Positions 15,291 through 18,605 of a stretch of 20,000 bases of DNA are shown here, one piece after another. The position numbers and the translations under genes were made by a program. Position 1 is the stretch's first letter; every line of letters begins with the position of its first letter. Under the pieces are notes generated by a model. That model did not search any database. It was given only the letters and a program-made list of their open reading frames with translations, and was not told where the DNA came from. Origin of the DNA: an uncultured virus (IMG/VR IMGVR_UViG_3300042317_001798) (taxonomy: Duplodnaviria > Heunggongvirae > Uroviricota > Caudoviricetes); the IMG/VR virus record IMGVR_UViG_3300042317_001798, positions 56,517-76,516 of that record; one strand, written 5' to 3'.

Positions 15291-16504
15291 CCACAAAGAA
15301 AAAGCCAACATCAAAACTGGGTGAAAAATTAAAAGCCGTCAAGGTGGCCCAGCAAAAAGAAGATGCTAGCGCCAAGGCTCTCGGTGATATCGCAGCGATG
15401 CTCAAGGCCAAAAACATCGACCCGTCCGAAATTGGGACTATTAACAAAGTGTCGTTGTATCAGACGGTAACAAAGAACGAATTGGGCGAGACGGAAGTCC
15501 ATAATTTGCAAGCAATTCAGTTCAGCCCCACTTGGGACCAGGGGCCACAGTGGCCACTAATTGAACAAGGCCCCAAGATACAACTACAAAAGTCAACGAC
15601 AAAAGTCACCCGTCCGAAAGGCTGGGAAGAGGCTGTCATCGTACCTGATATACAAATCGGCTTTTACCGTAAATCATTGGATTCTATGGACCTGGAACCA
15701 ATCCACGACGAGCAGGCAATAGCAGTAGCCTTGAAACTGATTGAAGACATCCAGCCAAATCAAGTGGTGATGGTCGGAGACAACTTAGACTTTGCAGAAT
15801 TCGGCAAATTTTTGACTGCTGCTCCGTTTAAGCAACTAGTTCAGGCAGCTATCGACAGGGCAACAATGCTTTGTGCCCAAATTAGGTCAGCTGCACCAAA
15901 TGCAAAAATCTCGTGGATTGCCGGCAACCACGAAGCCAGAATGGCGAGATATGTCCAAACCAACGCCGAAGCCGCCTTCGGAATCACTAGAGGCAAACTC
16001 AATGACGAATTGAGGGATAACTGGCCAGCCATGTCGGTTCCATACCTTTGTCGAATGGACGAGTTCGGGGTTGACTATATTCCTGGATACCCAGAGTCCT
16101 ATGTCAGCCTGAATGAAAACCTGATGGTTATCCACGGACACAAGGTTACGTCCAATGGTTCAACGACCAGTAAGTACCTAAATGACGCCCATGTGTCGGT
16201 GATATACGGACATATCCACAGGACAGAGTATGCCTTCCGCACTCGTCTGTCCAAGAATGGTCCAAGAACCATCATGGCGGCAAGTCCTGGCTGTCTCTGC
16301 AGGATAGACGGCGCAGTTCCTTCCACGAAATCTGGCGCAGATGAATTCGGACGTCCTATGCTCATGGGAGCAGAGAACTGGCAACAGGGAATGGCAGTAG
16401 TCCAGTACCAGCCGCCAGGGGTAGGCAACGAATGGTTCAACTACGAGCCAATGTGGATTTATAACGGACGAGGATTCTTCCGAGGCAAGGAGTACAGCGC
16501 ATGA
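15287..16504 (+). CDS. Calcineurin-like metallophosphoesterase
   Basis: PDIQ, GDNLD, GNHE, HGH, GHIHR motifs in order. Start reassigned to ATG 15287 (GAGG upstream, ATGA overlap). Confidence 0.85.
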   Translation: MTTKKKPTSKLGEKLKAVKVAQQKEDASAKALGDIAAMLKAKNIDPSEIGTINKVSLYQTVTKNELGETEVHNLQAIQFSPTWDQGPQWPLIEQGPKIQLQKSTTKVTRPKGWEEAVIVPDIQIGFYRKSLDSMDLEPIHDEQAIAVALKLIEDIQPNQVVMVGDNLDFAEFGKFLTAAPFKQLVQAAIDRATMLCAQIRSAAPNAKISWIAGNHEARMARYVQTNAEAAFGITRGKLNDELRDNWPAMSVPYLCRMDEFGVDYIPGYPESYVSLNENLMVIHGHKVTSNGSTTSKYLNDAHVSVIYGHIHRTEYAFRTRLSKNGPRTIMAASPGCLCRIDGAVPSTKSGADEFGRPMLMGAENWQQGMAVVQYQPPGVGNEWFNYEPMWIYNGRGFFRGKEYSA

Positions 16505-16746
16505 GTTCAAACGACCTTCCGCAAGAGTGGAGCGACTATTCAAAAGAAAACCTCCTCGAGGACATGGAACTTCTGAGGAAACAAGGTTTGATTGAAGTAG
16601 TAGGGATAAATAGTGACGGTGATTGGCTGTACGCCCTCACCGAATCAACAAGAAAGTTAATTGACGAAAACAAGTCAGACGACCCTTGGGCTGTGATATC
16701 ACAACTACTCATCGATGAACTACCGAATAGAGACGATATCAGTTGA
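16501..16746 (+). CDS. Small hypothetical protein with a wing-like motif
   Basis: AGGAG upstream, overlaps both neighbours; LRKQGLIEVVG...LYALT. Confidence 0.6.
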   Translation: MSSNDLPQEWSDYSKENLLEDMELLRKQGLIEVVGINSDGDWLYALTESTRKLIDENKSDDPWAVISQLLIDELPNRDDIS

Positions 16747-17369
16747 CAACAATAATCGGCATTCAGGGAGATGGGTTCTGTATAGCGACCGCTGATTCGC
16801 GTATCGCTGAGACCGATGCCGAGTCAAATTTGATTTCGCAAATTGTCGGTCTAAAAGAGAACAACAGCAAATTAGGGATTAACGGTAAGTACATACTCGG
16901 CGCTGCCGGCGACCTGCGGGCAATAAATATCCTGCATCATGCATTCAGCCCACCAACTCCGCCCCCAAATCTCAAAGGCAAGAAGCTTGACCATTTTGTT
17001 ACAGTTAAATTTATCCCAAGCTTGAGAGAATGCTTCGAAGCACAGGGATATGCCTCACCCGACAACGATTCAAAACAACATATCGCCGAACACGCTTCAA
17101 CGATATTCATGGCTGTCAATGGACAGATTTACATCATTGACGGTGACTACTCATGGATTTCAGACTCCAGTGGGATGTTTGCCATCGGAAGCGGCGCTCA
17201 GTACGCACTCGGAGCGATGTTCGCCATGCAACCGAAAGGCAAGATGACTGTTGGTGCAGCGCGAAAGCTTGCACTAAAAGCAATCGCCGCATCTGCCAAG
17301 TTCGACCCCTATACCGGTGCTCCGTACCATACGTTTTCACAGGGATTAGATAAAACCACTGACCGCTAG
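16743..17369 (+). CDS. Ntn-hydrolase of the HslV / proteasome-beta family
   Basis: N-terminal (M)TTIIGI...ADSR, conserved Lys (NSK), GAAG, AIGSG..YALGA, DPYTG; no propeptide; TTG start overlapping the upstream stop. Confidence 0.85.
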   Translation: MTTIIGIQGDGFCIATADSRIAETDAESNLISQIVGLKENNSKLGINGKYILGAAGDLRAINILHHAFSPPTPPPNLKGKKLDHFVTVKFIPSLRECFEAQGYASPDNDSKQHIAEHASTIFMAVNGQIYIIDGDYSWISDSSGMFAIGSGAQYALGAMFAMQPKGKMTVGAARKLALKAIAASAKFDPYTGAPYHTFSQGLDKTTDR

Positions 17370-17511: not shown

Positions 17512-17521
17512 AGACTAGATA

Positions 17522-17587
17522 GGGGTAAGGCAGAGCAATGGGGTGCCAGTAGGGGCAAGGCATAGTTGCAGGGGGGGTAAGGCATAG
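17522..17587 (+). repeat. Three direct repeats GGGGYAAGGCAKAG
   Basis: 17522-17535, 17552-17565, 17574-17587. Confidence 0.85.
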
Positions 17588-17690
17588 TACGAACCAAAAC
17601 CAACATCCACTTGACCACCACCTACCAGCAATTACCTAGTAGTAATTATCCAAAGAGATAAGAAATTCATCTTTTCTCTGAGGAGATTTT

Positions 17691-18041
17691 GTGACAAGCA
17701 AGAAAGAAATATCCAAACAAAAATTACCCAATAAAAATACCCAACCATTTTCAGAGATAGCTATACCTGCGAAAGATTGGTTTCAACTGGCAGCCTGTAG
17801 GGGAAAGACCGAACTAATGTTTCCCAAACAACATAAGGATATTACTTACATTGCACAGGCAAGAACCATCTGTAGGGCGTGCCCGGTTCGAGACAAGTGT
17901 TTAGAGTACGCACTTGAGTTTCCACCTGCTGATATGCACGGTGTTTGGGCAGGACTAACGAGCAGACAGCTTGCAGCAGAACAGAGAAGAAGAAAGATAA
18001 AGCCAACACGGCCAACGCTTGCACAGATGTGGGGAAATTAA
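17691..18041 (+). CDS. whiB: WhiB-family Fe-S transcription factor
   Basis: W...AAC, FP, ARTICRACPVRDKCLEYAL (four Cys in total), HGVWAGLT turn, basic tail; GAGGAG upstream of GTG. Confidence 0.95.
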   Translation: MTSKKEISKQKLPNKNTQPFSEIAIPAKDWFQLAACRGKTELMFPKQHKDITYIAQARTICRACPVRDKCLEYALEFPPADMHGVWAGLTSRQLAAEQRRRKIKPTRPTLAQMWGN

Positions 18042-18043
18042 AT

Positions 18044-18149
18044 GTCCACCCGGGCACCTCACTTGAGGAGGGGTCATGCACCCGACGCAAGGAGTCGTCG
18101 GTAGACGATGGCATAACCACCAAGCGAGTTAATTCCGGCCCGAGTGGAC
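18044..18149 (-). ncRNA. Candidate structured small RNA (about 106 nt), family not recognised
   Basis: 12-bp terminal stem GTCCACTCGGGC/GCCCGGGTGGAC, three or four internal hairpins, G-U pairs favouring the minus strand, extended -10 six nt before the first base. Confidence 0.6.
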
Positions 18150-18155
18150 GAGAGT

Positions 18156-18166
18156 AACCTAGCACA
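18156..18166 (-). promoter_or_regulatory. Extended -10 promoter TGTG-C-TAGGTT
   Basis: Matches TGnTAnnnT; predicted +1 at 18149. Confidence 0.55.
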
Positions 18167-18260
18167 GCAGATGGCCGGCATCTAATAAAAGGCGAAAAAA
18201 GACCAAAAATCCTGCGCCGGCGGTCCTAAAAATTTTTTTTCGAAATTTTGTAATTACAAA

Positions 18261-18605
18261 TTACATAATGCGCAAGTTGCAAGTCTCACAAAATTGCCAC
18301 TCATTTAATTGGGTAATTTTTTGCAGGCAATCTTTTTTGCCGCACGGCTTTAGTAATTGTTCCCCGCGCACGTACGCCAACACTTGCTCTTCCACTGTTG
18401 GTATTGAGAATTGCGCAGAGCCAGGAGCAGGGAATCCCTTTTGGTTGCGTACGAATTCATAGAGTGCATAGATGCACAATTGATTTACAGATATTCCCTG
18501 TTTAGTTGCGTACTCAACTATCTCGTTTTTCACCCGGCCTTTTAGTCGGATGTTCAGCGTTACATAGCTGTCGAGATGTTTAGTCTTTTTGCTTTTAGCG
18601 CCCAT
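18261..18605 (-). CDS. Ribbon-helix-helix protein with C-terminal four-Cys (Zn-ribbon-like) segment
   Basis: VTLNIRL...KNEIVEYATKQGISVNQLC is Arc/HicB-like RHH; CGKKDC...CETC. Confidence 0.75.
   Translation of the reverse strand: MGAKSKKTKHLDSYVTLNIRLKGRVKNEIVEYATKQGISVNQLCIYALYEFVRNQKGFPAPGSAQFSIPTVEEQVLAYVRGEQLLKPCGKKDCLQKITQLNEWQFCETCNLRIM

What the first reader, a model, noticed from the sequence alone, without database searches (positions are those of the whole stretch)
18044..18166. Candidate novel phage small RNA with its own promoter, converging on whiB
Seen (minus strand): TGTG-C-TAGGTT, 6 nt, then G18149, which is exactly the first base of a 12-bp stem pairing the two ends (GUCCACUCGGGC/GCCCGGGUGGAC). 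Inside are hairpins GGUGG/CCAUC, CCGACG/CGUCGG, CCUC/GAGG and a partly overlapping GGGU/ACCC. Positions that are C-A mismatches on the plus strand become G-U pairs on the minus strand. One loop (ACUCCUUG) and a linker (CCCCUCCUC) carry anti-Shine-Dalgarno CUCCU. The 3' end lies 2 nt from the whiB stop and is followed by AUUUAAUUU. Inference: a discrete ~106-nt multibranch RNA that may block ribosome-binding sites in trans, act as a protein decoy, or extend as antisense into whiB. I do not recognise the family, but cannot exclude an existing Rfam entry.
Basis: partly seen in the sequence, partly recalled or inferred. Interest (0 to 1): 0.78.

Follow-up and report, generated by a model that had tools for sequence, protein, structure and literature searches.

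The report
Rod-shaped small RNA of freshwater actinophage
A freshwater bacterial virus carries, just behind its whiB gene, an uncatalogued 106-base rod-shaped RNA gene with its own promoter. Its tip mirrors a ribosome-binding site, so it probably damps translation of some messages, but no transcript or target has been shown.

Summary
Minus-strand 18149-18044 folds as an unbranched four-helix rod (-52 kcal/mol, z -4.3). The proposed multibranch is 9 kcal/mol worse, and three of its four inner hairpins have pairing probability of about 0.

An extended -10 promoter sits 6 nt before G18149, and its key letters are invariant among close relatives. The element occupies an exchangeable slot behind whiB in a ~154-kb phage. 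Of 80 relatives, 12 carry it, 16 a second structured RNA, 2 a third, 6 a tRNA-Thr and 44 none of these. Only near-identical copies were found, so covariation is untestable (four one-sided G-U changes, none breaking a pair). There is no Rfam hit and no expression data.

New here: two identical 9x2 internal loops (GC-C-N7-A-C / G-GU-GC) and an open, invariant anti-SD tip loop.

Best reading (0.4): a trans-acting sRNA that pairs with ribosome-binding sites. Its best phage candidate (13-14 of 15 pairs, window 16479-16493) is not better than controls. Rivals: protein decoy via the twin loops, whiB antisense, plus-strand small ORFs, neutral insertion.

The parts
18156..18166 (-). Extended -10 promoter-like element (TGTG-n-TAnnnT)
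   Evidence: Sequence. 0 of 7 key positions vary against 5 of 10 other positions among 12 close relatives, Fisher p 0.04. Kept in L011, where the DNA just upstream is replaced. No transcript start observed.
18044..18149 (-). 106-nt rod-shaped small RNA (predicted +1 at G18149; 3' end not defined)
   Evidence: MFE -52, z -4.3; pair probabilities; alignment A1 and pair counts
18138..18149 (-). P1 5' strand, pairs with 18055-18044 (12 bp closing helix)
   Evidence: Pair probability 0.96-1.0; one C-G to U-G change
18129..18137 (-). Internal loop 1, long strand (C-N7-A), opposite GU at 18057-18056; first copy of the twin 9x2 motif
   Evidence: middle letters vary, junction letters do not
18058..18128 (-). 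P2 (18128-18120 with 18066-18058), 1x5 loop, P3 (18118-18111 with 18079-18072)
   Evidence: P2 core probability 0.95-0.98 in 4 of 5 variants, 0.66 in one
18102..18110 (-). Internal loop 2, long strand (C-N7-A), opposite GU at 18081-18080; second copy of the twin motif
   Evidence: 10 of 10 junction letters identical to loop 1; 11 of 200000 structure-keeping shuffles match this (core chosen after seeing it), 0.049 over a fixed 23-letter frame
18082..18101 (-). Apical hairpin P4 with the open anti-SD loop ACUCCUUG (18095-18088)
   Evidence: Opening cost 0.5 kcal/mol; invariant in all variants; chance 0.005-0.009
16479..16493 (+). Best candidate target: ribosome-binding site of the 81-aa gene that starts at 16501 (end of the metallophosphoesterase gene)
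   Evidence: 13-14 of 15 pairs with RNA nt 55-69; best of 191 starts in the complete close relative, but not beyond controls
17691..18041 (+). whiB gene, convergent with the RNA
   Evidence: Pfam PF02467 E 2.5e-15; PHROGs
18042..18104 (+). 20-codon hydrophilic ORF starting right after the whiB stop, antisense to the RNA's 3' half (rival reading)
   Evidence: both changes inside it are synonymous (read)
18195..18240 (.). A-tract / GC core / T-tract motif between the upstream minus-strand operon and the RNA promoter; putative terminator or insulator (inferred)
   Evidence: Pattern kept in 8 of 8 aligned loci, including empty slots; weak fold, -7.7; not listed by the terminator scan
18261..18605 (-). 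Arc/HicB-like small DNA-binding gene, last gene of the replication-side operon, bounding the slot
   Evidence: Pfam HicB E 2e-4; PHROG Arc-like repressor E 2e-4

Best explanation
The element is an accessory small-RNA gene cassette (own sigma-A-type promoter plus a 106-nt rod) that one phage lineage carries in an exchangeable slot behind whiB. The closing helix protects both ends. The open tip loop, a complement of the Shine-Dalgarno sequence, starts pairing with a ribosome-binding site, and the duplex extends into the 3' strand of the short P4 helix. This blocks 30S loading on one or a few phage or host mRNAs without an RNA chaperone. The twin 9x2 loops are read as structural or protein-docking joints. 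Shown: fold, strand, promoter letters, slot, loop content. Inferred: transcription, 3' end, pairing in trans, target and effect.
For: Fold and strand. None of the 9 variable sites breaks a pair, p about 0.04; 4 of 4 stem changes swap Watson-Crick and G-U, p about 0.10 alone. Promoter. The same slot holds tRNA-Thr in 6 and other structured RNAs in 18 of 80 relatives, on the same strand. The tip loop is open, invariant and holds an anti-SD 6-mer at 0.5-0.9% chance. A different hairpin RNA whose loop keeps CUCCUUUCGGUA while the stem changes occurs in 4 of 6 complete related genomes, including the closest. The best of 191 gene starts in the close relative is a 13-14 of 15 match in the operon next door. 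Chaperone-free pairing by C-rich loops is shown for the actinobacterial 6C sRNA (PMC6486639, abstract).
Against: The candidate target is not significant: net -17.8 kcal/mol against best scores of -15.4 to -19.7 in 5 genomes that lack the RNA; 16 of 120 and 27 of 120 random-stem controls reach it. The weaker match in relatives without the RNA is expected after picking the best site in the own genome. Only 7 of 191 starts carry AAGGAG. The same ranking also failed to single out an own-genome target for the other hairpin family in 4 of 4 genomes. No two-sided covariation exists. The reading does not explain the twin loops. The host is inferred from whiB only, and host mRNAs were not screened.
Confidence: 0.4

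Rival explanations
1. Protein-binding decoy or scaffold: the rod presents two copies of one asymmetric loop, 27 nt apart on the 5' strand, to a dimeric or two-site host or phage RNA-binding protein and titrates it.
For: Two loops of equal size (9x2) with 10 of 10 identical junction letters while the flanking helices differ. Changes fall in the middle of the loops, never at the junctions. The ends are sealed by a 12-bp helix.
Against: No partner found: no reverse transcriptase, Ro60/TROVE, RNA ligase or RNase III family among 125 of 191 ORFs of the complete relative scanned. The motif core was chosen after seeing it (p 0.049 on a fixed frame). A nested duplication could give the same pattern. 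No other helix-flanked copy survived folding in 6 complete genomes.
Confidence: 0.22
2. Cis-antisense control of whiB, like lambda OOP on cII: the rod is a stabilising 5' cap on a transcript that runs on into whiB, or the convergent promoter interferes with whiB transcription.
For: Convergent, 2 nt from the stop codon, with no conserved terminator after the rod. whiB mRNA probably reads across the element to the A/T-tract motif. Replication initiator and helicase-loader genes lie on the promoter side. OOP overlaps 52 bases of cII and suppresses it (PMC5869508, passages).
Against: The folded part overlaps no whiB codon. 68 of 80 relatives run whiB without it, and tRNAs and other RNAs fill the same slot, so position alone explains the convergence. 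It needs neither the twin loops nor an anti-SD tip.
Confidence: 0.15
3. The plus strand matters: a 20-codon ORF coupled to the whiB stop (18042-18104), or an 18-codon ORF behind a strong SD (18076-18132). The 'anti-SD' letters are then just their complement, and the minus-strand RNA is at most their antisense.
For: The ATG follows the whiB stop in all variants, and both changes inside the 20-codon ORF are synonymous. Short hydrophobic peptides (GRAVY above 0.8) sit just behind whiB in 25 of 80 relatives. The 18-codon ORF keeps its start and stop in 3 of 3 variants.
Against: Both peptides are hydrophilic (GRAVY -1.6 for the first) and unlike the relatives' membrane peptides. The 18-codon ORF changes residues at 2 of 3 varying codons. 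The helices extend 45 nt beyond the 20-codon ORF, and the fold favours the minus strand in 5 of 5 variants.
Confidence: 0.08
4. Non-functional or DNA-level insertion (inverted-repeat relic, terminator or origin hairpin) with a chance promoter.
For: Confined to one species-level clade with whiB identity of about 95% or more. Its variable-site density (0.085) is no lower than in whiB (0.077). No expression data.
Against: Single copy in its own record and in the complete relative, no target duplication seen by eye, DNA folds only -24 and -21, no strand-composition skew in the element, and the promoter letters are conserved.
Confidence: 0.15

Closest known systems
6C sRNA (B11) of Actinobacteria (PMC6486639, abstract and outline read)
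   Same: Actinobacterial setting; pyrimidine/C-rich open loop able to pair with G-rich mRNA leaders without Hfq or ProQ.
   Different: No Rfam match. One unbranched rod with a single 8-nt tip loop rather than several C-run loops; phage-borne and confined to one lineage; twin internal loops.
Lambda OOP RNA (PMC5869508, passages read)
   Same: Short RNA from its own promoter, convergent on the 3' end of a transcription-factor gene, near replication genes.
   Different: OOP overlaps 52 coding bases and ends at its own terminator; here the folded part overlaps no whiB codon and no conserved terminator follows.
Stable non-tRNA RNAs in phage tRNA regions, such as T4 RNA C and D (recalled, no call)
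   Same: Small structured RNA of unknown function with paired ends, in a place where relatives keep tRNAs.
   Different: No sequence or model match tested; stands alone with its own promoter rather than inside a tRNA cluster.
RNA-based origins of cluster A mycobacteriophage prophages (PMC7157519, passages read)
   Same: Non-coding RNA in an actinophage, transcribed against its neighbour.
   Different: Those lie beside parABS in phages without RepA; this phage has a replication-initiator-like gene, and 68 of 80 relatives lack the RNA.
Candidate structured RNAs of IMG/VR (Fremin et al. 2023, PMC10690425; abstract, methods section 4.2 and supplement list read)
   Same: Same kind of object and same database.
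   Different: Their pipeline required significant covariation, which this RNA lacks. One candidate (DNAVirus_8169) lies upstream of a whiB gene, not downstream. Their alignments and main table could not be read, so overlap is not excluded.

Membership tests
Any Rfam 15 family | Covariance-model score at or above the gathering threshold | tested here: not met
   0 hits in the window. Best over the element at E up to 10 is mir-67, 15.9 bits against 53; none over it.
6C sRNA | Match to the 6C model | tested here: not met
6C sRNA | Single-stranded C-rich loop that can pair with G-rich leaders | tested here: met
   Tip loop opening cost 0.5 kcal/mol and anti-SD content; one loop only, two C in a row
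6C sRNA / anti-RBS sRNAs | Specific mRNA targets repressed by pairing | tested here: inconclusive
   Best site not beyond controls; host mRNAs not screened; repression not testable here
OOP-type cis-antisense RNA | Own convergent promoter | tested here: met
   Sequence and conservation only
OOP-type cis-antisense RNA | Overlap with the 3' coding end of the target, closed by its own terminator | tested here: inconclusive
   Folded part stops 2 nt short of the stop codon; no terminator right after the rod; read-through unknown
Type I toxin-antitoxin | Small hydrophobic toxin ORF opposite the RNA (feature recalled) | tested here: not met
   Overlapping ORFs are hydrophilic
Pistol ribozyme | GU junction plus P1 hairpin, pseudoknot and catalytic long strand (features recalled) | tested here: not met
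   Only the G-GU-GC junction resembles it; long strands are 9 nt, the P1-like hairpin has probability 0.00, no Rfam hit
tRNA / tmRNA | Cloverleaf or tag reading frame | tested here: not met
   ARAGORN 0 genes in the window
Retron or other RT-linked RNA | Reverse transcriptase in the genome | tested here: inconclusive
   None among 125 of 191 ORFs of the complete relative or 13 window ORFs; the rest not scanned
MITE / non-autonomous insertion | Several copies and target-site duplication | tested here: not met
   One copy in G000 (record about 51% complete) and in complete G001; no duplication seen
Expressed small RNA | Strand-specific transcript with defined ends | not testable with these tools
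   Only contig-level, DNA-like runs were available

The most novel reading that the evidence does not exclude
The twin 9x2 loop is an undescribed protein-binding RNA motif. This phage uses the rod as a two-site decoy, possibly baited with an anti-SD tip that mimics the 16S rRNA tail, against a host translation or anti-phage factor. The slot behind whiB is then an exchangeable cassette from which these actinophages draw tRNAs and at least three unrelated, uncatalogued small RNAs.
Probability: 0.2. Interest if true: 0.75.

Novelty: new variant of a known kind. Interest (0 to 1): 0.45.

Why it matters
Small regulatory RNAs of lytic phages, and of phages of freshwater Actinobacteria in particular, are hardly characterised. 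This one is short, has a clear promoter and a named candidate target, so it can be tested in a laboratory actinobacterium with a reporter. The exchangeable slot suggests that these phages swap non-coding cargo as they swap accessory genes. The twin loop offers a built-in control for finding a new RNA-protein motif. Interest is held down by the narrow distribution, the lack of covariation and expression data, and a target that does not beat chance.

Tried and rejected
Search for distant homologues, all without result:
- blastn against 50,697 phage records: 5 chance hits of 19-22 nt.
- Model R1 on 50 related virus records, of the 80 loci in hand: 6 hits, all close copies.
- Pattern scans of viral contigs: 17 loci, 12 close copies and 5 chance; 12 of 12 close copies; 37 loci, 12 close copies and 25 without the fold.
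Of 530 distinct matches in 369 loci, only close copies had all four stems. These scans are incomplete and prove no absence.
- 119 further loci from a whiB C-terminal pattern: 43 new downstream sequences, none with the element; R1 on 70 of the 119 gave 2 close copies.
- R1 on 151 genomes of the family of an Ilumatobacteraceae-labelled genome and 151 of the order of a Nanopelagicales-labelled genome: 0 and 0, without a positive control.

Expression: no RNA holder listed. Four laid runs were contigs, probably DNA, and say nothing on expression.

Readings rejected:
- A pistol- or HDV-like ribozyme.
- attC-like cassette end: boxes do not fit, judged by eye from recalled features.
- A pseudoknot between loop 1 and the 3' trailer: 8 possible pairs, but a 2-nt linker cannot span the 12-bp helix (inference).
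- A G/T mutation skew as the cause of the G-U asymmetry.
- whiB's own ribosome-binding site as target: rank 23 of 191.
- Long exact complements in the own genomes: none of 12 nt or more.

The atlas search on the 81-aa candidate target gave no usable family.

Literature searches listed no paper describing this RNA. The library lacks most subscription papers, and the Fremin alignments and main table could not be read.

Full report
Setting. The window is the last 20 kb of a 76.5-kb virus record, about 51% complete. The gene at 17691-18041 is WhiB. 212 relatives were found in viral contigs and the best 80 kept. A near-identical phage is complete at 153,913 bases, with tail-sheath, baseplate, ribonucleotide reductase, ThyX, many 2OG-Fe(II) oxygenases, a second whiB and tRNAs. 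whiB is used as a marker of freshwater actinophages (PMC10914622, passages); the host is inferred from that alone. To the right, on the minus strand, lie a replication-initiator-like gene, a helicase-loader-like gene and an Arc/HicB-like gene.

Observation. The promoter letters, the 6-nt spacer, the 12-bp closing stem and the 2-nt distance to the whiB stop are as described. The minus strand folds at -52.0 kcal/mol, z -4.31, 0 of 200 shuffles as good; the plus strand at -43.4, z -3.50. The structure is not multibranched. It is a rod: P1 12 bp, 9x2 loop, P2 9 bp, 1x5 loop, P3 8 bp, 9x2 loop, P4 6 bp, 8-nt tip. The rod is the minimum-energy fold in 4 of 5 distinct variants and within 0.3 kcal/mol in the fifth. 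Rfam gives nothing at gathering level and nothing meaningful at E up to 10; ARAGORN finds no tRNA.

Variation. 12 of 80 whiB loci carry the element, all with whiB identity of about 95% or more. Six rows (5 distinct) were aligned; 9 sites vary. Four lie in helices, and each swaps a Watson-Crick pair for G-U on the minus strand; none breaks a pair and none is two-sided. Since 40 of 72 possible transitions would keep a pair, this is p about 0.10 for the stems alone and about 0.04 for no break among nine sites: mild support. The element is not more conserved than whiB (0.085 against 0.077 variable sites per base) and shows no G/T skew that could fake the asymmetry. In the promoter, 0 of 7 key positions and 5 of 10 others vary (p 0.04), and local chance for such a box at that distance is 0.0014. 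In one relative the upstream DNA is replaced up to just before TGTG.

The slot. Between whiB and the Arc-like gene the 80 loci hold this RNA (12), a second structured RNA with a conserved A-rich core and varying stems (16), a third element (2), tRNA-Thr (6) or none of these (44). The gap ranges from 32 to 759 bases, and 25 loci have a short hydrophobic peptide just behind the whiB stop. The second family folds at z -4.4 to -5.4 in 4 of 5 variants, shows two-sided changes in 7 of 18 predicted pairs in an imperfect alignment, and has TAnnnT 5-7 nt before its stem in 5 of 6 variants (read). The place and strand are therefore those of an exchangeable slot for small RNAs, which supports the RNA reading and weakens any special link to whiB.

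Anatomy. Two features call for explanation. First, both 9x2 loops have the same junction, GC-C-N7-A-C opposite G-GU-GC: 10 of 10 letters. That arises in 11 of 200,000 structure-keeping shuffles, but the core was picked after seeing it; over a fixed 23-letter frame p is 0.049, and the equal loop size is not counted in either figure. No other copy survived folding in six complete related genomes. Second, the tip loop ACUCCUUG is open (0.5 kcal/mol), invariant, and holds a complement of the Shine-Dalgarno sequence, which a random 8-nt loop of this make-up does in 0.5-0.9% of cases (the SD motif is recalled). A separate ~60-nt hairpin RNA with a conserved CUCCUUUCGGUA loop and changing stems lies in 4 of those 6 genomes, including the closest, so anti-SD loops recur in this clade.

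Targets. Among 191 predicted starts of the complete relative, the best site is the ribosome-binding site of the 81-aa gene at window 16501. RNA nt 55-69 pair with 16479-16493 at 13-14 of 15 positions, hybrid -25.6, net -17.8 after opening the RNA; opening the target costs a further 4.8. The site is intact in the 11 element-bearing loci that reach it and weaker (-6.0 to -19.8) in the others. It does not beat controls: five genomes without the RNA give best scores of -15.4 to -19.7, and 16 of 120 random P4 stems do as well. The same method found no own-genome preference for the other hairpin family, so it may simply lack power. The site is a candidate to test, not a finding.

Rivals. A protein decoy fits the twin loops, but no partner family was seen in 125 of 191 ORFs scanned. 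Antisense control of whiB resembles lambda OOP (PMC5869508, passages), but no whiB codon is overlapped by the folded part and most relatives do without it. Two small plus-strand ORFs cross the element; the 20-codon one starts where relatives have a coupled peptide and has only synonymous changes, but it is hydrophilic and covers little more than half of the rod. A neutral insertion cannot be excluded without expression data; no RNA holder was listed.

Known and new. No Rfam family matches. Ten literature searches listed no description; for papers not named in this report only the search listings were seen. The IMG/VR survey of structured RNAs (PMC10690425) required covariation, and its alignments and main table could not be read, so an entry there is unlikely but not excluded. 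It works most like 6C and other C-rich-loop sRNAs (PMC6486639, abstract) but is not a member. Earlier unchecked notes of this scan report several anti-SD small RNAs in other actinophages. They are leads, not support, but together they moved my ranking from decoy to anti-RBS.

Verdict. Probably a real small RNA gene (about 0.75-0.8), with a rod fold rather than the proposed multibranch, uncatalogued and confined to one lineage in the data reached. Most likely action: ribosome-binding-site pairing through the tip loop (0.4); then protein decoy (0.22), whiB antisense (0.15), no function (0.15), small ORF (0.08). Interest 0.45.

Noticed in passing
L017:2418-2494 (-), L031:582-658 (-), L062:2406-2484 (-), L064:1859-1936 (-), L237:577-654 (-): A second uncatalogued ~75-nt RNA family with a conserved CCACACAAAAAGG...GCUAACGG core, freely changing closing stems and a -10 box; in the whiB slot in 16 of 80 loci, always beside a short hydrophobic peptide gene on the other strand (a type I toxin-antitoxin-like layout, though the peptide also occurs without it). 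No Rfam hit. A better covariation candidate than the finding itself.
   Followed up: partly
L490:5653-5711 (+), L501:6401-6466 (+), L521:1408-1472 (+), L524:17173-17237 (+): ~60-nt hairpin RNA with a 17-19 bp variable stem and a conserved anti-SD loop, in 4 of 6 complete genomes; no own-genome target stood out.
   Followed up: partly
L013:1183-1285 (-): A third element with GC-rich paired ends in the same slot in the nearest outgroup (whiB 81-82% identical); weak fold, z -0.7.
   Followed up: partly
L492:18112-18182 (+), L490:10407-10466 (+), L524:7992-8122 (-), L525:8073-8174 (+): Further closed-stem RNA candidates in related complete genomes, three of the four with a -10-like box.
   Followed up: no
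window 17517-17588: Three imperfect 20-nt direct repeats (GGGG.AAGGCA core) and nearby inverted repeats upstream of whiB; possible protein-binding sites.
   Followed up: no
window 18042-18104 and relatives: Short hydrophobic peptide genes (about 19-27 aa) start at or just after the whiB stop in 25 of 80 relatives; the window has a hydrophilic ORF at that position.
   Followed up: partly
window 18034-18041 and 18129-18136: Loop 1 of the RNA can pair with the RNA's own 3' trailer (8 pairs), and a shifted 5-pair match persists in the two variants with a different whiB end; sterically unlikely within one molecule (read).
   Followed up: partly
window 18247-18269: Palindrome around GTAATTAC at the end of the Arc/HicB-like gene, partly kept in relatives; possible operator.
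   Followed up: no
G036 (L531-L538): The hexamer GCCGGC is absent (0 seen, 24 expected) while five related genomes hold 30-71 copies; suggests restriction-site avoidance in that phage's host.
   Followed up: no
window 16743-17369: HslV/proteasome-subunit-like peptidase gene directly upstream of the whiB region.
   Followed up: no
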